IMG/VR virus record: IMGVR_UViG_2802429221_000016
Coordinates: 1 to 6,709 of that record
Length of the DNA: 6,709 bases
Strand: one strand, 5' to 3'
DNA from: a virus
Taxonomy: Duplodnaviria; Heunggongvirae; Uroviricota; Caudoviricetes
Shown here piece after piece: positions 1,317-6,176 of the stretch (the stretch's first letter is position 1; each line of letters opens with the position of its first letter). The notes below the pieces were generated by a model. That model did not search any database and had not been told where the DNA came from. It saw only the letters and a list, made by a program, of their open reading frames with translations. Position numbers and translations under genes: made by a program.

Positions 1317-2057
1317 ATGCTTCATTGGGTTTGTACAAAATGTCAGTCTAAAAATTCTACGAAGGAATCAGTGTGTCCTGCGTGTGGAACTTCTTTTTGG
1401 TCGACGCAGAAAAAAGAAAGGAGAGGGTGTTTATTGTTGGTTGTAATGTTCTTCGTTGTGTTTTGGGTTATTGGGCAATTATCCGGAAACGAATCCGATT
1501 CACAGGTAAATAATATTCCATCGAAAGATCATATTAGCGATGAACTTGCTTTATCTGGAGTAGACAAGGCGAAACCGTATTCTTTTGTGCGTTATGATGA
1601 CATAAGTTATGCGGGACGAAAGAGATTTAAGGTTTTTATAGTGTCGCCTGAGTCTCAAGATTTAGAATCAAGAGCTTCGACAGCAATGGCCGCGGCTATT
1701 GAGTGGCAGAAAGAGAAGAGAGCTGACTTTGTATCTGTGTTGCTTCTACCTACAGAAAATTCTGAAGGTAGTTATCGGTTGGCAATGGTTGATTATTCTC
1801 CGGATGGTTGCGGAACTGGTGCTGTATGTGATAATAAAAAATGGACTATATTGTCTAGTGACGTAATATTAACGAAATCGCAACTTCAATCTATATCCTT
1901 GTGGAATGAGTATAAGAAAAAGTTTGCGGGTAATGATGGAATTTTGGATTTAAAGGAAGAAAAGAAATTGAAGCAGTTTATTAGTAAACAGCTAAATATT
2001 CCTGTTAAGGATGTATTTGCTCCAGATATTTTTCCTTTAAAGAAAATCGAAGATTAA
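1317..2057 (+). CDS. Moron-like membrane protein: N-terminal Cys4 zinc ribbon, one TM helix, about 190-aa C-terminal domain; function unknown
   Basis: 246-aa ORF with GGAG (1305-1308) 8 nt before the ATG. CxxC-x10-CxxC (C6, C9, C20, C23), basic stretch QKKERRG, hydrophobic segment CLLLVVMFFVVFWVIGQL (about residues 38-55), then a hydrophilic domain containing a CGTGAVC cysteine pair. Positive-inside rule suggests N-in/C-out. Visibly AT-rich relative to flanks (by eye, not computed). Followed by a terminator. I do not recognise the C-terminal domain. Confidence 0.8.
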   Translation: MLHWVCTKCQSKNSTKESVCPACGTSFWSTQKKERRGCLLLVVMFFVVFWVIGQLSGNESDSQVNNIPSKDHISDELALSGVDKAKPYSFVRYDDISYAGRKRFKVFIVSPESQDLESRASTAMAAAIEWQKEKRADFVSVLLLPTENSEGSYRLAMVDYSPDGCGTGAVCDNKKWTILSSDVILTKSQLQSISLWNEYKKKFAGNDGILDLKEEKKLKQFISKQLNIPVKDVFAPDIFPLKKIED

Positions 2058-2128: not shown

Positions 2129-2172
2129 AAAAAGAAAACCCGCAGTTTTTACGCTGCGGGTTTCTGCTTTGG
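2129..2172. terminator. Bidirectional intrinsic terminator between the convergent moron and hok transcripts
   Basis: Hairpin CCCGCAG (2139-2145) / CTGCGGG (2154-2160) with an 8-nt loop. Plus strand: followed by TTTCTGCTTT (2161-2170). Minus strand: followed by UUUUCUUUUU (complement of 2129-2138). A second imperfect hairpin (2105-2128, CCCTCA...TGAGGG) sits immediately next to it. Confidence 0.6.
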
Positions 2173-2216
2173 GATGTGTATAGGGTGCCTTATCGACCTT
2201 ACCCTGGCAACCGATT

Positions 2217-2251
2217 GACGGGGAAGTTGCCTTCCCCGTCGCGGTTTTCTT
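2217..2251. other. Perfect 10-bp palindromic hairpin abutting the hok stop codon
   Basis: GACGGGGAAG (2217-2226), loop TTGC, CTTCCCCGTC (2231-2240), then GCGG + TTTTCTT on the plus strand. It could be a second plus-strand terminator, or, read on the minus strand, a structured element in the hok 3' UTR. Confidence 0.4.
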
Positions 2252-2393
2252 ACTGTCTACACTGTAAGAACGCCGCAAACTCCGCTCCCCAGAAGCTCAT
2301 CCGTATCTCGCAGAGCGAACCCTGCAACATCCAGATGATGAGGATTGCCGTCACGCACAGTGTGGTGATGGCGATTAGCGATTTTTGCGACAT
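2250..2393 (-). CDS. hok: Hok/Gef-family type I toxin (small membrane-depolarising peptide), 47 aa
   Basis: Not in the ORF track (below its length cut-off). Minus-strand ATG at 2393..2391 with AGGAG 8 nt upstream; stop TAA at 2252..2250. Translation: MSQKSLIAITTLCVTAILIIWMLQGSLCEIRMSFWGAEFAAFLQCRQ. It shares the family layout (N-terminal TM helix, then W-M-x-x-x-S-L-C-E-I/L, then E-x-A-A-F-L-x-C) with E. coli HokA (...FTWMIRDSLCELHIKQESYELAAFLACKLKE) and R1 Hok (...[25 protein letters not shown]), both quoted from memory. Confidence 0.8.
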   Translation of the reverse strand: MSQKSLIAITTLCVTAILIIWMLQGSLCEIRMSFWGAEFAAFLQCRQ

Positions 2394-2496
2394 AGCGCTT
2401 GCTCCTTTTTCGGGGAGGCGCTAACCTACGACTTGCGAAGGTTGTATGGCTAGGGCCTCGGGTTAACGTTAAAGTTGACTCGGGGCCTTTCCACAT
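2257..2496 (-). CDS. mok: mok-like overlapping reading frame (modulator of hok translation)
   Basis: 79-codon ORF in a different frame that begins upstream of hok and overlaps nearly all of it, ending 7 nt from the hok stop. ATG at 2496 with GAAGG upstream. The protein is low-complexity and basic, as expected for a frame that exists for translational coupling rather than for its product. The true start could be internal. Confidence 0.4.
   Translation of the reverse strand: MWKGPESTLTLTRGPSHTTFASRRLAPPRKRSKRYVAKIANRHHHTVRDGNPHHLDVAGFALRDTDELLGSGVCGVLTV
2454..2487 (+). other. Strand-specific RNA hairpin (14 bp with three G-U pairs) antisense to the mok 5' region
   Basis: GGCCTCGGGTTAAC (2454-2467) pairs with GTTGACTCGGGGCC (2474-2487) around loop GTTAAA. 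All three non-Watson-Crick positions are G-U/U-G on the plus-strand RNA and would be C-A mismatches on the minus-strand RNA. Candidate part of a Sok-like antisense RNA; only TTT follows, so it is not a convincing terminator on its own. Confidence 0.3.
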
Positions 2497-2546
2497 TCGG
2501 CCTTCGGGTTTACCCTCCAGCCATCAGCCGAAAGGCACCCGCGCGA

Positions 2547-2576
2547 ATTCTAGCCTGGTTTTTTCCCTTGTTTCAA
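2547..2576 (-). promoter_or_regulatory. Candidate sigma70 promoter for the hok/mok mRNA
   Basis: On the minus strand: TTGAAA (plus coords 2576..2571), 18-bp spacer, TAGAAT (2552..2547); predicted start about 2540, giving a transcript of about 410 nt to the terminator at about 2130. Hexamer match only. Confidence 0.3.
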
Positions 2577-2580
2577 TCCG

Positions 2581-2610
2581 TTGAGACTTATCAGCCTTCT
2601 GATGTAAAAT
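2581..2610 (+). promoter_or_regulatory. Near-consensus sigma70 promoter of the candidate sRNA
   Basis: TTGAGA (2581-2586), 18-bp spacer, TAAAAT (2605-2610). It is back-to-back with the candidate hok promoter; the two -35 elements are 4 bp apart. Confidence 0.45.
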
Positions 2611-2616
2611 TCCCGA

Positions 2617-2681
2617 CCGCAGACATTATTCAGTCACGCATTTGATACATGCTTCCGCCGGCGTTCGCGCCGGTTTTTTTT
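2617..2681 (+). ncRNA. Candidate small RNA, about 65 nt, from promoter to intrinsic terminator
   Basis: Predicted start about 2616-2619, 7-9 nt after the -10. The 3' end is a hairpin CCGGCG (2658-2663), loop TTCG, CGCCGG (2668-2673) followed by eight T (2674-2681). No plausible ORF inside (the only ATG frame runs through the terminator). Sok-like antitoxin RNAs are about this size, but this unit overlaps the hok mRNA only if that mRNA starts to the right of 2681; identity unresolved. Confidence 0.4.
2656..2681 (+). terminator. Textbook Rho-independent terminator (GC stem, UUCG tetraloop, U8)
   Basis: Read directly: perfect 6-bp GC stem, extendable by one G-U pair, UUCG loop, eight consecutive T. 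Plus-strand specific (no U-run on the other side). Confidence 0.7.
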
Positions 2682-2915
2682 CGTCCTGTTGCTGCATAGA
2701 TCGTCATGCGCGATCGAGGCGCGGTATTGATCCTTTTTCAGTTTAATTTTGACTCTCAATTTTACGCATGCCGCGCCGCGTCTGGCTTCGTTGTTTGACG
2801 ATTTTTTGATGCGATCCTTTCGTGATCGTTTCCCGTCTCGCGTAAAATGCAAAAACTCTTTTAATATCATGCGGTTTTATTGCCCCTGCCATTTATGCGA
2901 TCGTAAAAACCACTC

Positions 2916-3020
2916 TGAAAACTGAAAAAAATTTCAAAGCGTGAAATTTCAGATCTTCGCTTTTCCCTCAGTTGCTGCGCGGGCTGGCGGTCATTTTTGC
3001 ACGGCAGAAAACTGAAAAAC
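2916..3020. repeat. A-tract repeat cluster: two copies of GAAAACTGAAAAA plus TGAAA/TTTCA palindromes
   Basis: GAAAACTGAAAAA at 2917-2929 and again at 3007-3019 (13/13). TGAAA-aaaa-TTTCA at 2923-2936 and the perfect 10-bp palindrome TGAAATTTCA at 2942-2951. Non-coding; candidate regulator or nucleoid-protein binding sites. Confidence 0.5.
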
Positions 3021-3033
3021 TGTTTCGACACAA

Positions 3034-3100
3034 AACCCGCGGGTTGGAGGGGGTAGCGCGGTTTACGTCACCTCACGCTTTACGTCACACCGTTTACGTG
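3034..3100. repeat. 12-bp perfect palindrome followed by three direct repeats of TTTACGT(C/G)
   Basis: AACCCGCGGGTT (3034-3045) is self-complementary. TTTACGTCA at 3062-3070 and 3079-3087, and TTTACGTG at 3093-3100, spaced 17 and 14 bp. Lies just downstream of the terminator-like hairpin that follows the 565-aa gene. Candidate operator / iteron / arm-type protein-binding array. Confidence 0.5.
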
Positions 3101-3149
3101 GTGTGCGCATACAGCGCCGGAATGGCACGCAGAACGCATTAATCATGTG

Positions 3150-3184
3150 GCAGATATGAAAACGCACGACCGGAGCCGTGCGTT
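3150..3184 (-). terminator. Candidate intrinsic terminator of the minus-strand structural operon
   Basis: AACGCACG (3161-3168) pairs with CGTGCGTT (3177-3184) around an 8-nt loop, about 40 nt after the stop at 3222-3224. On the minus-strand RNA it is followed by UUUUCAUAUCU. Confidence 0.4.
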
Positions 3185-3221
3185 GCGTGATGGGCGTTTA
3201 TGGGGGTTTTATGCCCGGTGA

Positions 3222-4919
3222 TCAGGCGATAAGGTCACCGTATTTTTCGCGCAGGCTCGTAGCCTGTTTGGCGTCTGCGGCAAGTTCGCTGCTGTTTGTT
3301 GGTGCGCCGGTGTTGCTGTGGGTGTGGTTTGCAGTGTGTGTGGCCAGCAACTGAACCAGATCCAGAATATCAATCAACAACGTCAGCAGATTAAGTCCGG
3401 ATTTTTCCCGTGAGCCACCGCGACCAATAAATACTGTCGGGGCTGTAAACTCCAGACCGCCGTCCGCCCGGCATGTTCTGCGGCCTCCCACGTTTTCAGT
3501 AAGGTCGCGCTCAATCGTGGATGTCGCCCCTTTGAGTTTAGTCAGCAAATCCTGCGCTACCATCTGGATATGCTCACCGGCTGCGATCGCATAATGACCA
3601 GTAGTAATGTGTTCTGTCTGGCCTGTCATCAGCTTGCTGGTTCCCAGAACGCTGGTTATGTCGTTTGCCTGTACTGTTGTTGTTCTGGTTGTTGTTGTGC
3701 GTTCTTCCTGATCGCTGTTAATGGTTCGCCTGGCTGAATGCTCCCTGATTTGCTGATCGGTTTCTCTGTGCCAGCTTCCGTCAGTCGTGACGCGCTGAAA
3801 CACTTCTGCGCGCTGTTGCTGCAGCTGTTCGCCGGGCTTTACATCAGGCAGGTTATGGCCAGCGGGTAAGATTTGCCTGATGACAGGTTTATCCGGTCGT
3901 CCTTCAATGTTGGATATTTCCACGATGGTGCCAGCCGGCGGGTAGGCAAAACATCCCGCCTCACTGCCAGCCATGGGGACGGGGAGCGGTACTGCCGGGT
4001 AAACGGGCGTATCGCTTTTATCGTTGCCGTTCTCATCAAGCAACTGCACATCGACGGCGTAGCGTGGGCGGAAACTGTCGGCCACATCGCCCAGGGTGGC
4101 GGGCTCCGTTGGTGCAATGACGCGCGCCAGCCGGGTATGTAGCGTACCGCTGGCCAGTTCCGGGAACTGTGTTTCCATTTGTCTGCGTAATGGTGATTTG
4201 GAAACAGGGCTGCCCGTGGCGGTAAGGCGCTCCCATGTCAGGGTCATTTTCTCGTTGTTGAGGGCTACACGGGTAATGCGCCCGGCCGGAAGGTTCACGC
4301 CCGGTCGCACAGTTTCCATAAACATGATGTCGATGCTGTTTCCGCCGCTTTGCCCGAGTGTGTACTGTTGCGGAATATCCGGCATTGTAATACTGGCAAA
4401 TCGTGAATCAGCTGCGCTTCCCACAAATACAGAACCGTCCGGCATTGGATGCCAGACGTAATCGCTGATACTGAATGCTCGCCCCAGTTGGCTGAGCAGT
4501 TGTGCTCCGCTGCCGCTGTGGGTGATGTAGGGAGTTGGTATGCTGACGTAATCCGCATCTGGCGTGGTGAAAACGATGCCGCTTTGTTTGCCCAGATTAT
4601 CGAGTACCCCCCGCAACGTCGGGTGTTGCATGGAGCAAGGGAAATCAAAATCCAGCACAGCAGCTGCTTCACGGATAAAAAGGCGACGTGAGCCATTTTC
4701 AGCAGGTTGATCGCGCTCAATGTAGCCGGAGAAATAGCGCCATGCTTCACCGTCACGGCCGAGATCAATTTGTACCATTGCGCCGGCAAGGCTGTGTTCG
4801 GGTGACAGATTGTTAACAGAAATGAAGCCACGACCGGCAGCATTCAGGGTAAGAACAAGGTTTATATCGGCAATTTCCACCCGTTCGCCATTAATCATGC
4901 AGCGTTGTATCAATTTCAT
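3222..4919 (-). CDS. Phage baseplate hub/central spike protein (fused gp27-like N-terminal region + gp5/gpV-like OB-fold and needle), 565 aa
   Basis: Strong SD GAGGAAGGG upstream; start overlaps the upstream stop (ATGA at 4916-4919). The segment PPAGTIVEISNIEGRPDKPVIRQIL fits the OB-fold signature of phage gp5/gpV and T6SS VgrG (typical VgrG form P-R-I-G-Q-E-V-V-V-D-F-L-E-G-D-P-D-Q-P-I-I, from memory). It is followed by Thr-rich beta-strand-like repeats (TTTTRTTTV, HITTGHYAIAAGEHI) and a His-rich apex THTANHTHSNTG resembling the metal-binding tip of P2 gpV-type spikes. The N-terminal 320 aa is unassigned and the hub call is inference. Confidence 0.55.
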   Translation of the reverse strand: MKLIQRCMINGERVEIADINLVLTLNAAGRGFISVNNLSPEHSLAGAMVQIDLGRDGEAWRYFSGYIERDQPAENGSRRLFIREAAAVLDFDFPCSMQHPTLRGVLDNLGKQSGIVFTTPDADYVSIPTPYITHSGSGAQLLSQLGRAFSISDYVWHPMPDGSVFVGSAADSRFASITMPDIPQQYTLGQSGGNSIDIMFMETVRPGVNLPAGRITRVALNNEKMTLTWERLTATGSPVSKSPLRRQMETQFPELASGTLHTRLARVIAPTEPATLGDVADSFRPRYAVDVQLLDENGNDKSDTPVYPAVPLPVPMAGSEAGCFAYPPAGTIVEISNIEGRPDKPVIRQILPAGHNLPDVKPGEQLQQQRAEVFQRVTTDGSWHRETDQQIREHSARRTINSDQEERTTTTRTTTVQANDITSVLGTSKLMTGQTEHITTGHYAIAAGEHIQMVAQDLLTKLKGATSTIERDLTENVGGRRTCRADGGLEFTAPTVFIGRGGSREKSGLNLLTLLIDILDLVQLLATHTANHTHSNTGAPTNSSELAADAKQATSLREKYGDLIA

Positions 4920-5491
4920 GTTTTCCCTTCCTCTTTCACACTCCCAATGCCAACAGCATCCAGACCAGAGCCAACGGCATCATTGATTTTTTTCCAGAAC
5001 GAACTTTGCGTATTCATGCCTTTGTCTGGTGCCTGTTCGCTGCCATTCTGGGTCTGCTGTCTGGCGATGGTTTTTTGTGAACCGCTACGTGCTGATGCTT
5101 TCTCTGGCACGCTTAATTTTTCCCTGAGAGTAAAGGTGACCTGCCAGTGCATTTTTCCCTGTTGTTCCGTGGCATCAATGCCACCAGAAAATACCCCCTG
5201 TCGCATATTGATTGCCTTCGCGGTAGCGTTAGCAATGCGATATGTTTTTTTAGCACCGTTGCTTTCTGTTGCCTCCGCAAGCTGAAAAATACGGGTCAGA
5301 ATAGCTTCATCGTTAAAATCAATAACCCCCGACACGCGCAGCTCTTTAGCCTTGTTTCCCTGCTGGGCGCTCGTGGTGCTGGTTGACTGTCCGGACATAT
5401 CTTTGTCCGGTAGTTGCATGGTGGCGCTGACGGTGATGTTGCGCAGCAGAATGGCTTCCCCGTCAAGCGCAAGGACAATCATCTGGGTCAT
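4916..5491 (-). CDS. Phage structural-operon protein, 191 aa, function unknown (possibly tail/baseplate-associated)
   Basis: Long ORF in the same operon; its stop overlaps the next start in ATGA, and its start region overlaps the upstream ORF by 29 nt. No motif I can assign; the tail/baseplate guess is from position only. Confidence 0.6.
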   Translation of the reverse strand: MTQMIVLALDGEAILLRNITVSATMQLPDKDMSGQSTSTTSAQQGNKAKELRVSGVIDFNDEAILTRIFQLAEATESNGAKKTYRIANATAKAINMRQGVFSGGIDATEQQGKMHWQVTFTLREKLSVPEKASARSGSQKTIARQQTQNGSEQAPDKGMNTQSSFWKKINDAVGSGLDAVGIGSVKEEGKT

Positions 5492-6176
5492 GTAGTGCTT
5501 CCCTTAGTGATGAGAGATTATCGCCGACGAACAGCATCACAGCTGTAAAAACCCACTCGGGGTGTGGGATGTTTTTTTGTATCAGCACTGCAGCCTGGCT
5601 AAGAGCTCCCTTGTAGCAAAAGCGCCACACCGGGCAAAATTTTTGCCGGAGTGCGGCCTGCTGATCAGCGATTTCCTGTAAGGCTTTATCTCTCGCATTC
5701 ATGAACTGATGCAGCGATGATGACAATGTTTCCGGTGATGTGGCGGCAGGAGTGGCTGCCTGTGCAATGGTTGCCGCCAGCGACATGCTTCGAGTGGTCT
5801 GTGTCGACAGCATTATCGGTTCCGGAAGTGATGTTGCCGGTCTGGCGGGGATTTGCATTCTGCTGATGGCCAGTGAAAGCTGGCTGGAGATCATGCGGGA
5901 CATTCGTCCCACCTCCGGCAACGGAAATGCGCCTGAAAATTGCCTGGCGAGTGATAAAAACTCGCCAGCAGAAGGGGTGCAAAATAACAGCGCCACAATG
6001 TCTTTTTCTGTGCTTTCTTTCAGATAGGGTAAAAGTGCAGATACAGCATTTTCGGGGCTGAGATAACGCCCCGATGGTTTGATGTTTCCGGTATTTTCTG
6101 ACCATGGATGAAGGCAAACCACAGAGCATTTAATGTGCATGGCTGACGGACGCAGAATTGCCTTTTCCCATTTCAT
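5463..6176 (-). CDS. Phage structural-operon protein, 237 aa, function unknown
   Basis: Long ORF; its start overlaps the upstream stop (ATGA at 6173-6176). Ala/Thr/Ser-rich central linker. No recognisable motif. Confidence 0.6.
   Translation of the reverse strand: MKWEKAILRPSAMHIKCSVVCLHPWSENTGNIKPSGRYLSPENAVSALLPYLKESTEKDIVALLFCTPSAGEFLSLARQFSGAFPLPEVGRMSRMISSQLSLAISRMQIPARPATSLPEPIMLSTQTTRSMSLAATIAQAATPAATSPETLSSSLHQFMNARDKALQEIADQQAALRQKFCPVWRFCYKGALSQAAVLIQKNIPHPEWVFTAVMLFVGDNLSSLREALHDPDDCPCA

What the first reader, a model, noticed from the sequence alone, without database searches (positions are those of the whole stretch)
2581..2681. Compact sRNA-like gene: near-consensus promoter, about 65 nt, UUCG-tetraloop terminator
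TTGAGA-N18-TAAAAT followed about 7 nt later by a roughly 65-nt segment ending in a perfect GC stem with a UUCG loop and U8. That is an unusually canonical stand-alone transcription unit in a stretch with no plausible ORF. It lies between the hok locus and the repeat arrays, and could be an antitoxin, a trans-acting phage sRNA, or a regulator of the adjacent operon end.
Basis: seen in the sequence. Interest (0 to 1): 0.55.

Follow-up and report, generated by a model that had tools for sequence, protein, structure and literature searches.

The report
Orphan small-RNA unit beside prophage cos
A promoter-like site, about 65 non-coding bases and a strong terminator really do sit together between a hok/sok toxin cassette and the DNA-packaging (cos) site of an HP1-like prophage; it is a plausible but unproven accessory small-RNA gene, is not the hok antitoxin, and is fairly ordinary for a prophage.

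Summary
TTGAGA-N18-TAAAAT (2581-2610, +) lies 46 nt upstream of a CCGGCG-UUCG-CGCCGG hairpin with a T8 tail (2657-2681, +). No ORF is conserved through it.

Context, corrected:
- The element is an HP1/ESSI-2-like (Peduoviridae) prophage.
- The unit sits in a variable moron zone between cos and a hok/sok cassette, whose own promoter (2576-2547, -) diverges from it.

Comparative evidence:
- The unit occurs only in this prophage lineage (41 of 5426 E. coli genomes, plus viral and metagenome contigs).
- It is deleted or replaced in sister phages.
- One diverged homologue (L037) keeps a promoter (TTGAAT-N17-TAAAAT) and the same terminator stem, while the roughly 50-nt body is only about 52% identical.
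- One sub-lineage has lost the -10.
- There is no Rfam family, and no above-chance complementarity to hok mRNA, the Sok side or the prophage.

Best reading (about 0.5): a real stand-alone transcription unit making a 63-66-nt non-coding RNA. Selection appears to act on the promoter and terminator rather than the RNA sequence, and the target is unknown.

Main rival (about 0.3): only the terminator matters, as a barrier to rightward transcription into cos and the antisense of the late operon.

The antitoxin reading is rejected. Interest is modest.

The parts
2581..2586 (+). -35-like hexamer TTGAGA of the candidate unit
   Evidence: Variants among relatives are TTGAGG, TTGGGG and TTGACT. It sits 4 bp from the -35 of the divergent hok promoter.
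2605..2610 (+). -10-like hexamer TAAAAT
   Evidence: It is the same in all 24 unique window-type sequences except one TAGAAT (L027). The 18-nt spacer varies at 9 of 18 sites without any indel. It is identical (6/6) in the diverged homologue L037. It is replaced by GTGCATATC in the STEC313-type sub-lineage.
2617..2681 (+). Predicted non-coding transcript of about 63-66 nt. The start is inferred from the -10 position, the end from the terminator.
   Evidence: Inference. There is no conserved ORF. No Rfam match reaches threshold; the best is rseX at 19.8 bits against a cut-off of 50.
2657..2681 (+). Intrinsic terminator: 6-7 bp G+C stem, UUCG loop, T8 tail
   Evidence: 23 of 25 positions are kept in L037, where the loop changes and the stem gains a pair (CCGGCGT-ATT-ACGCCGG). 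L043 carries only structure-preserving changes, G-C to G-U and G.U to A-U.
2547..2576 (-). hok promoter (TTGAAA-N18-TAGAAT), divergent from the unit
   Evidence: The same pair of hexamers is found in L037. The Rfam sok/hok-leader alignment starts at 2540.
2135..2540 (-). hok mRNA (Hok CDS 2250-2393), ending at a bidirectional terminator at 2135-2164
   Evidence: Hok is annotated in relatives and matches phrog_251. Homology to hok cassettes of many other phages stops at about 2564-2568, short of the unit.
2428..2493 (+). Inferred position of the real antitoxin, Sok RNA (antisense to the hok leader; hairpin 2455-2490 followed by a weak TTTCC tail)
   Evidence: Inferred from the known hok/sok architecture (own knowledge), the sub-threshold RF01794 hit at 2380-2540, and reading of the sequence. 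Not tested further.
2734..3100 (.). The cohesive-end site is equivalent to about 3038-3058. It also holds AAACTGAAAAA x3, TTTACGT x3 and a GATC cluster.
   Evidence: The ends of the phage ESSI-2, SW5, ESSI2_ev015 and HP2 records fall at the homologous point. Repeats are and GATC sites. The block is conserved in Edwardsiella prophages whose tail gene is only 61% identical.
3160..3190 (-). Hairpin ending the late (tail) operon
   Evidence: Reading. The L037 equivalent was called a 10-bp terminator by the scan. Edwardsiella carries a compensatory change, CGCACG/CGTGCG to CGCACA/TGTGCG.
3222..4919 (-). Last late gene: baseplate protein, homologue of HP1/HP2 orf35
   Evidence: phrog_2258, E = 4.6e-233. 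tblastn hits to HP2 orf35, ESSI-2, SW5 and phiO18P.

Best explanation
The segment is a genuine, self-contained accessory ('moron-like') transcription unit of an HP1/ESSI-2-like temperate phage. It lies in the variable zone between the cos packaging site and a hok/sok cassette.

A sigma-70 promoter (TTGAGA-N18-TAAAAT) would start an RNA at about 2616-2619. A very strong intrinsic terminator stops it at about 2681, giving a 63-66-nt non-coding RNA with an unstructured 5' part and a hairpin-U8 3' end of the type that Hfq-binding sRNAs carry.

Shown:
- The elements exist.
- Their joint occurrence is rare by chance.
- The unit is non-coding.
- Promoter and terminator are retained in a lineage whose RNA body has drifted to about 52% identity.
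- It is not part of hok/sok.

Inferred:
- That it is transcribed, probably constitutively in lysogens.
- That what is selected is the promoter-terminator pair, i.e. production of a short terminated transcript, rather than a long conserved seed.

Its terminator will in any case also stop all rightward transcription before it enters cos and runs antisense into the late operon. That includes Sok read-through, moron transcripts and, in the circular phage, int transcripts. The RNA's own target is unknown. If it acts in trans, it does so through a short and fast-evolving seed on host mRNAs.
For: - The promoter-like site and the terminator are on the same strand, 46 nt apart. Such a pair arises in 0.5% of random 1.3-kb sequences.
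- In L037, hok is 84% and cos plus tail genes are 78.8% identical to the window, and the unit region is too diverged for BLAST. There the only two promoter-like sites in 1.2 kb are the hok promoter and TTGAAT-N17-TAAAAT, which lies 51 nt upstream of a CCGGCGT-ATT-ACGCCGG-T8 terminator.
- Segment identities, window against L037: -10 6/6, terminator 23/25, body 24/46, downstream flank 18/31.
- Within 24 unique window-type sequences, the spacer varies at 9 of 18 sites with no indel, while the -10 varies once, to TAGAAT.
- Stem substitutions preserve pairing.
- No ORF survives the T-run length variation.
- The unit is present, absent or replaced among sister phages, as morons are.
- A covariance model of the unit finds only window-type copies (92-99 bits) and L037 (61.8 bits).
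Against: - There are no expression data of any kind.
- The promoter match (10/12, 18-nt spacer) is not exceptional on its own.
- The STEC313-type sub-lineage keeps body and terminator unchanged but has no recognisable promoter.
- The RNA body is the least conserved part. L034 alone carries 8 substitutions in the 39-nt body. That is the opposite of what a seed-driven trans-acting sRNA usually shows.
- The unit is dispensable: it is deleted in L035/L042 and replaced in L030/L036/L040.
- The -35 hexamers of the window and L037 are not at orthologous positions in the pairwise alignment.
- Only one truly diverged homologue exists, so the comparative evidence rests on few independent events.
Confidence: 0.5

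Rival explanations
1. Terminator only. The functional element is the strong plus-strand intrinsic terminator. It acts as a barrier at the left edge of the cos region against transcription coming from the int/attP/moron/Sok side, protecting cos and preventing antisense transcription of the late operon. The upstream hexamers are incidental or too weak to matter, so there is no dedicated RNA product.
For: - The terminator is by far the best conserved part (23/25 against L037).
- The STEC313-type lineage keeps it without a promoter.
- Other lineages have non-homologous plus-orientation terminators at the analogous place. SW5 has a bidirectional terminator between int and the cos arm. ESSI2_ev015 has one after its last plus-strand moron. 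Edwardsiella has an extended hairpin plus T-run (-23.7 kcal/mol, z = -4.9) next to attR.
- The inferred Sok terminator upstream has only a TTTCC tail, so read-through is plausible.
- The body is effectively unconstrained.
Against: - The -10 hexamer is conserved 6/6 in a background of about 55% identity, and a correctly spaced -35 is present in both diverged lineages.
- The spacer varies freely in sequence but never in length.
- Edwardsiella also has its only promoter-like site in 1.2 kb (TTGCCA-N18-TACTAT) just upstream of its hairpin.
- Phages lacking any terminator here exist (L035/L042, L030-type, ESSI-2), so a barrier is not obligatory.
Confidence: 0.3
2. Evolutionary debris. The unit is what remains of a larger moron whose coding part was deleted when cassettes such as hok were exchanged: a promoter or 5' UTR fused to a 3' terminator. 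It may be transcribed but has no selected function.
For: - The unit lies exactly at a recombination junction. hok homology to other phages ends at about 2568. The window-type and STEC313-type alleles switch at about 2618.
- This zone is the most mosaic part of the locus.
- The body evolves at about the same rate as the flanking spacer.
Against: The same arguments for purifying selection on the -10 and the terminator as above. A neutral relic would not keep 23/25 terminator positions and 6/6 of the -10 while its interior drops to 52%.
Confidence: 0.15
3. Part of the hok/sok system: a second antitoxin or regulator RNA that pairs with hok mRNA or Sok.
For: It is adjacent to hok, has a Sok-like size of about 65 nt, and in this sample occurs only in phages that also carry hok.
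Against: - It lies outside the hok transcript and upstream of its promoter.
- Duplex energies against hok mRNA and against the Sok side are within the shuffle distributions in both the window and L037. In 200 shuffles, the observed value was reached 27 times (window, hok mRNA), 182 (window, Sok side), 69 (L037, hok mRNA) and 195 (L037, Sok side).
- hok cassettes in more than 200 phage records, and in about 1500 further E. coli genomes, lack it.
- hok occurs without it next to the same cos block (L035, L030-type).
Confidence: 0.03

Closest known systems
Prophage-encoded 'moron' sRNAs of enterobacteria (e.g. DicF, IpeX, AsxR/AgvB); comparison from own knowledge
   Same: A short non-coding unit with its own sigma-70-type promoter and a Rho-independent terminator with a long U tail. 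It lies in an accessory, mosaic region of a temperate phage and is present or absent among related phages.
   Different: There is no sequence or Rfam relationship to any of them. There is no expression, Hfq or target evidence. The putative seed region is not conserved. The location next to cos in an HP1-like phage is not one I know to be described.
Sok antisense RNA of hok/sok (Rfam RF01794)
   Same: About 65 nt, with its own promoter and terminator, and physically next to a hok gene.
   Different: It is not antisense to the hok/mok leader and has no complementarity to it. The sok-family signal lies at 2380-2540, not in the unit.
RseX Hfq-binding sRNA (Rfam RF01401)
   Same: It is the top sub-threshold Rfam hit for both the window unit (19.8 bits) and L037 (23.1 bits). 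The terminators are nearly the same: GCCGGC-loop-GCCGG plus a U tail.
   Different: The scores are far below the gathering score of 50. With the terminator removed, similarity to E. coli K-12 rseX is no better than shuffles (z = 1.3, 1.2, -0.1 and -0.1). The resemblance is terminator-driven, so I do not treat it as homology.
Boundary terminators beyond attP, such as lambda tI/sib (own knowledge)
   Same: A terminator oriented to stop int-side transcription after it has crossed attP, before the next functional block. In Edwardsiella relatives the equivalent hairpin lies directly next to attR.
   Different: Here a hok cassette and other morons separate it from attP, and it has its own promoter. 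An RNase III or retroregulatory role is untested.
cos site of HP1/HP2-type phages (for the neighbouring 'repeat arrays')
   Same: It lies between the orf35-type baseplate gene and the int/attP end. A G-rich cohesive-end sequence is preceded by AACTGAAAAA and followed by TTT(T)ACGT/TTTCCGT repeats. The record ends of HP2, ESSI-2, SW5 and ev015 map to this point.
   Different: The cleavage positions in this prophage are inferred by homology and have not been determined.

Membership tests
Sok antitoxin RNA (hok/sok type I toxin-antitoxin, RF01794) | Encoded antisense to, and overlapping, the hok/mok mRNA leader | tested here: not met
   The unit (2581-2681, +) lies upstream of the hok promoter (2576-2547, -) and outside the hok mRNA.
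Sok antitoxin RNA (hok/sok type I toxin-antitoxin, RF01794) | Extended complementarity to hok mRNA | tested here: not met
   RNAduplex energies are within the shuffle range for the window and L037. No complementary run of 9 nt or more lies in the hok locus.
Sok antitoxin RNA (hok/sok type I toxin-antitoxin, RF01794) | Match to the Rfam covariance model | tested here: not met
   The only RF01794 signal is at 2380-2540 (35.8 bits, below the cut-off of 59). Nothing falls in 2581-2681.
Hfq-dependent trans-acting sRNA (class, not a homology family) | Own promoter and Rho-independent terminator with a U tail of at least 6-7 | tested here: met
   The T-run is 5-9 among relatives. These are predictions only, not transcripts.
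Hfq-dependent trans-acting sRNA (class, not a homology family) | Conserved single-stranded seed region | tested here: not met
   The body is 24/46 identical to L037. L034 has 8 changes in 39 nt. The body is less conserved than the promoter and terminator.
Hfq-dependent trans-acting sRNA (class, not a homology family) | Binding to Hfq and base-pairing with target mRNAs | not testable with these tools
   This needs RIP-seq, RIL-seq or a whole-host-genome target scan. There was no above-chance pairing to the 47.5-kb prophage locus.
Phage moron (autonomous promoter-insert-terminator cassette) | Flanked by its own promoter and terminator between conserved phage blocks | tested here: met
   It lies between the hok cassette and the cos block.
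Phage moron (autonomous promoter-insert-terminator cassette) | Present in some and absent from other closely related phages | tested here: met
   Absent in L035/L042, replaced in L030/L036/L040 and L033/L045, present in window-type and L037.
Phage moron (autonomous promoter-insert-terminator cassette) | Expressed from the repressed prophage | not testable with these tools
   No transcript data are available.
RseX (RF01401) | Score at or above the family's gathering threshold, with similarity outside the terminator | tested here: not met
   19.8 and 23.1 bits against 50. Body-only local alignments to K-12 rseX are at shuffle level.
HP1-type cos site (neighbouring block 2734-3100) | Homologous to the physical ends of virion DNA of related phages, and located between the orf35-type gene and int/attP | tested here: met
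   ESSI-2 has a 15-nt terminal redundancy. The SW5 break, the ev015 break (followed by adapter sequence) and the HP2 ends all align to window 3007-3070. The gene-stop-to-end distance is 196-236 bp in HP2, ESSI-2 and ev015, against about 165-185 bp here.

The most novel reading that the evidence does not exclude
The unit is a new kind of small phage regulatory cassette in which the act of making a short terminated transcript next to cos is what is selected, not the RNA sequence. Possibilities include:
- a promoter-terminator pair that insulates the packaging site;
- one that sets local supercoiling or RNA polymerase occupancy for the back-to-back hok promoter;
- an RNA that acts in cis as antisense to leftward read-through from the late operon, which would explain why promoter and terminator are conserved while the body drifts.

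Alternatively, it is a previously undescribed Hfq-type sRNA of HP1-like phages that reprogrammes host mRNAs through a short seed.
Probability: 0.2. Interest if true: 0.55.

Novelty: new member of a known kind. Interest (0 to 1): 0.3.

Why it matters
If transcribed, this would be an unannotated small RNA carried by a widespread group of HP1-like prophages of Escherichia, including STEC, ETEC and E. albertii strains. It would add to the still short list of sRNA 'morons' outside lambdoid phages.

The conservation pattern (promoter and terminator kept, body free) makes it a convenient test case. It could show whether some orphan promoter-terminator units are selected as insulators rather than as regulators.

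The practical gain from this check is the corrected map of the locus:
- the 'repeat arrays' are the cos site;
- hok/sok and the unit are cargo inserted between cos and attP;
- the unit is not the antitoxin.

None of this would surprise a specialist much.

Tried and rejected
1. Rfam. No family reaches threshold on the unit in the window or in L037. The recurrent weak rseX and OmrA-B hits are terminator-driven. A direct comparison with K-12 rseX, terminator removed, is at shuffle level.

2. Coding potential. ORFs on both strands cross the T-run, whose length varies. A 56-65-aa plus-strand ORF across cos is open in most lineages but broken in L037. I treated it as non-coding.

3. Antitoxin or hok regulator. 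Rejected.

4. Trans target inside the prophage. There is no complementary run longer than in shuffles: 10 nt at most, against 9-12 nt in shuffles. A first attempt with exhaustive RNAduplex timed out.

5. An internal hairpin GCAU/AUGC (2638-2651). The substitutions in L034 do not compensate, so it is not supported.

6. Homology of the body motif CAGTCACGC to Edwardsiella and ESSI-2 sequences. The multiple alignment places the ESSI-2 copy elsewhere, and the covariance model finds nothing in Edwardsiella, ESSI-2, SW5 or HP2. I treated it as coincidence or unresolved.

7. My early ideas that the element is Mu-like, or that cos lies next to the portal gene as in P2. Both were abandoned after the full prophage map and the HP1-type relatives were seen.

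8. A search for further diverged homologues. Three viral scans, one metagenome scan, one genome scan and BLAST of the L037 unit against E. coli and phage collections gave no further diverged version of the unit beyond L034, the STEC313-type and L037.

9. Two literature searches found nothing on sRNAs next to cos in P2- or HP1-like phages.

Full report
**The observation**

- TTGAGA lies at 2581-2586 and TAAAAT at 2605-2610, with an 18-nt spacer (10 of 12 consensus positions).
- 46 nt further on the same strand is a hairpin CCGGCG-TTCG-CGCCGG (2658-2673, extendable by a G.T pair), followed by eight T (2674-2681).

The promoter match alone is unremarkable. The scan finds 2 such sites in 1.3 kb, against 1.4 +/- 1.4 in shuffles. 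A promoter-like site followed within 20-150 nt by a strong terminator on the same strand arose in only 10 of 2000 random sequences of the same length and dinucleotide content.

The predicted 63-66-nt RNA folds as a largely open 5' part plus the terminator hairpin (-17.1 kcal/mol, z = -2.2).

No ORF is credible. All ORFs that cross the unit run through the T-run, whose length ranges from 5 to 9 in relatives.

**What the surroundings are**

From left to right the window holds:
- the host gene flk (1-996, -);
- a DUF4875 cargo gene (1317-2057, +);
- a hok cassette (Hok CDS 2250-2393, -);
- the unit;
- about 540 bp of non-coding DNA with repeats;
- four late genes on the minus strand.

The hok promoter (TTGAAA-N18-TAGAAT, 2576-2547, -) is back to back with the candidate promoter. 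The hok mRNA runs from about 2540 to a bidirectional terminator at 2135-2164. Homology to the hok cassettes of more than 200 phage records stops at about 2564-2568, just short of the unit.

The complete element, seen in E. coli A36, runs from an integrase through gpA-type replication, ogr, and P2-family head and tail genes. It ends with a 565-aa baseplate protein, the non-coding stretch and hok. That baseplate protein is the homologue of orf35, the last gene of Haemophilus phages HP1/HP2, and of the terminal gene of ESSI-2, SW5 and phiO18P. The element is therefore an HP1/ESSI-2-like member of the Peduoviridae.

The host is not E. coli proper. flk is only 87.5% identical to every E. coli genome. 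The closest prophage copy in the species-representative set is in E. albertii.

**The 'repeat arrays' are the cos site**

The non-coding block (about 2705-3190) is conserved in Edwardsiella prophages whose baseplate protein is only 61% identical. It is also recognisable in ESSI-2 and SW5. The physical ends of related phage records all fall at one homologous point:
- The ESSI-2 record ends '...AAAACTGAAAAAATTTTGCGATCCAAAACTTGCAGGCGGGTGCGGTGTAG' and begins 'GCGGGTGCGGTGTAG...'. That is a 15-nt terminal redundancy.
- The SW5 record is broken at the same point.
- The ESSI2_ev015 record breaks there too, followed by sequencing-adapter sequence.
- HP2, whose record I believe runs from cos end to cos end (own knowledge), shows the same layout. 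AACTGAAAAA is followed by a G-rich end (AGGAAG on both termini) and then by TTT(T)ACGT/TTTCCGT repeats, 196 bp from the orf35 stop.

These align with window 3007-3100 (AAAACTGAAAAA ... AAACCCGCGGGTTGGAGGGGGTAGCGCGG, then three TTTACGT repeats).

So cos cleavage is inferred at about 3038-3058. The unit lies 360-420 bp to its left, on the arm of the virion DNA that carries hok, attP and int.

**Distribution and variation of the unit**

A 176-nt query across the unit finds it in 41 of 5426 E. coli genomes, always unannotated and in this prophage type wherever I fetched the context. The hok part alone occurs in about 1560 genomes. Viral and metagenome scans add about 25 more copies.

What lies between hok and the cos block differs between lineages:
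- a. Window-type: promoter, body and terminator.
- b. STEC313-type: another hok allele. The sequence switches at about 2618, the -10 is replaced by GTGCATATC, the scan finds no promoter, and body and terminator are unchanged.
- c. L037: a diverged homologue (see below).
- d. L035/L042: the unit is deleted.
- e. L030/L036/L040: replaced by unrelated sequence with extra TTTACGTC repeats.
- f. L033/L045: no hok, other sequence.
- g. Edwardsiella: no hok. Next to attR is a promoter-like site (TTGCCA-N18-TACTAT, the only one in 1.2 kb), followed by an extended hairpin with a T-run (-23.7 kcal/mol, z = -4.9).

A covariance model of the unit recovers only the window-type copies (92-99 bits) and L037 (61.8 bits). 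It finds nothing in Edwardsiella, ESSI-2, SW5 or HP2.

**Evidence on selection**

L037 is 84% identical to the window across hok and 78.8% across cos and the tail genes. The 130 bp containing the unit are too diverged to be aligned by BLAST. Yet the scan of L037 finds exactly two promoter-like sites in 1.2 kb. One is the hok promoter. The other is TTGAAT-N17-TAAAAT, 51 nt upstream of a terminator CCGGCGT-ATT-ACGCCGG-T8.

In a pairwise alignment of the window and L037:

| Segment | Identical positions |
|---|---|
| -10 hexamer | 6/6 |
| Terminator | 23/25 |
| Body | 24/46 |
| Downstream flank | 18/31 |

Among 24 unique window-type sequences, the 18-nt spacer varies at 9 sites with no length change. 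The -10 varies once, to TAGAAT, which is still a good -10. Stem substitutions are structure-preserving (L043: G-C to G-U, and G.U to A-U).

Promoter and terminator therefore look constrained, while the RNA body looks close to neutral. L034 has 8 changes in 39 nt.

Caveats:
- Only one really diverged homologue exists.
- The -35 hexamers of the two lineages are not orthologous in the alignment.
- One sub-lineage has no promoter.

**What it is not**

It is not Sok.
- The sub-threshold RF01794 signal lies within the hok leader (2380-2540). That is where an antisense RNA of Sok size can be read on the plus strand (about 2428-2493; inferred).
- The unit's body has no above-chance pairing to hok mRNA or to the Sok side, in either lineage.
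- It has none to anything else in the 47.5-kb prophage locus.

It belongs to no Rfam family. The repeated weak hits to rseX (19.8 and 23.1 bits; cut-off 50) and OmrA-B come from the similar terminator. Without the terminator, similarity to K-12 rseX equals that of shuffles.

**Most likely mechanism**

I favour a real but accessory transcription unit, at about 0.5. A sigma-70 promoter fires away from the hok promoter, and the strong terminator releases a roughly 65-nt non-coding RNA. The hairpin-U8 3' end is of the kind bound by Hfq (own knowledge of that class).

The unusual point is that the sequence between promoter and terminator is not conserved. Either a very short seed suffices, or what matters is the short terminated transcription event itself, together with the barrier that the terminator imposes. 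The terminator will stop Sok read-through, moron transcripts and, in the circular phage, int transcripts before they cross cos and run antisense into the late operon.

The main rival (about 0.3) is that only this barrier function is real. In its favour:
- analogous but non-homologous plus-orientation terminators in SW5, ev015 and Edwardsiella;
- the promoter-less STEC313-type.

Against it:
- the conserved -10 and the fixed spacer length;
- the existence of sister phages with no terminator at all.

A neutral relic of cassette exchange (about 0.15) fits the position at a recombination junction. It does not fit the differential conservation.

**Verdict**

This is a candidate new prophage sRNA-type moron without relatives in Rfam. 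It sits in a context now resolved as hok/sok cargo next to the cos site of an HP1-like prophage. Without transcript data it remains a prediction. It is of modest interest, and its most interesting aspect is the promoter/terminator-only conservation.

Noticed in passing
window 2734-3100 (core about 3007-3100): The conserved non-coding 'repeat array' block is the phage cos region. AAACTGAAAAA occurs three times (2734 inverted, 2919, 3009). A palindromic, G-rich cohesive-end equivalent lies at about 3033-3058. Three TTTACGT repeats lie at 3062, 3079 and 3092. The record ends of ESSI-2, SW5, ev015 and HP2 map here.
   Followed up: yes
window 2699-2955: 7 of the window's 20 GATC sites are clustered in 257 bp of the left cos arm, mostly as (C/T)GATC(C/G). 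Most are conserved in Edwardsiella relatives, and a GATC cluster is also present at the same side of HP2 cos. This is reminiscent of the Dam-dependent P1 pac site (own knowledge). Some relatives carry com plus DNA-methyltransferase cargo nearby.
   Followed up: partly
window 2851-2876: The motif AAAACTCTTTTAATATCATGCGGTTT is strongly conserved. In Edwardsiella the equivalent is TATATCAACTAGTTT, a near-perfect IHF consensus (WATCAANNNNTTR). It is probably an IHF bend site within cos rather than a promoter.
   Followed up: no
window 3160-3190 (- strand): This hairpin ends the late operon. It shows a compensatory double change in Edwardsiella (CGCACG/CGTGCG to CGCACA/TGTGCG). The scan tool called its L037 equivalent a 10-bp terminator, but did not call it in the window because the T-run is short.
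   Followed up: partly
window 2590-2603: The promoter spacer contains the dyad ATCAG-CCTT-CTGAT. In the STEC313-type allele the same position carries a different dyad, CAAC-ACTCT-GTTG. It may be an operator or hairpin. It is absent in L037.
   Followed up: no
L062 (NC_049395.1, Escherichia phage ESSI2_ev015) about 15-48: The RefSeq record begins with what I recognise (own knowledge) as Illumina Nextera transposase adapter sequence (TCGTCGGCAGCGTCAGATGTGTATAAGAGACAG), directly at the cos break. This is an assembly artefact in a public record.
   Followed up: no
L059 (Cronobacter phage ESSI-2) about 530-550 bp after the int stop: A perfect LexA box (CTGTATATAAACACAG) sits between attP and cos, upstream of an unannotated minus-strand ORF of about 87 aa. 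It may be an SOS-controlled gene at the place where the window carries hok and the unit. This recalls the LexA-controlled tum of phage 186 (own knowledge).
   Followed up: no
L004, L005, L007-L009 (E. coli relatives), left of hok: Cargo between hok and attR varies between relatives: Com-family regulator plus DNA methyltransferase (Mu com/mom-like), a TM2-domain protein, serine acetyltransferase, or DUF4875 as in the window (1317-2057). The same prophage type sits at different chromosomal sites (serS-dmsA in A36, next to flk here and in STEC316).
   Followed up: partly
L012 6388-6470 (Edwardsiella anguillarum, - strand): Three TGGCAGCA direct repeats lie next to the tRNA-Gly/Cys/Leu cluster and are likely Int arm sites. 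They are followed by the only promoter-like site of the region and an extended hairpin whose U-tract pairs with an upstream A/G-rich run, forming a bidirectional terminator-like structure.
   Followed up: partly
window 2944-3139 (+ strand): A 56-65-aa ORF spanning the cos core (…LLRGLAVIFARQKTEKLFRHKTRGLEGVARFTSP…) stays open in most lineages, including Edwardsiella, with some conservative replacements, but it is broken in L037. This is probably a by-product of DNA-level conservation.
   Followed up: partly
window 5432-5573 (+) and 2129-2196 (-): There are weak Rfam hits to RsmY (18.7 bits) and to the Thr leader (22.6 bits). Both are far below threshold. The second is just the hok terminator. 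I treated both as chance.
   Followed up: no
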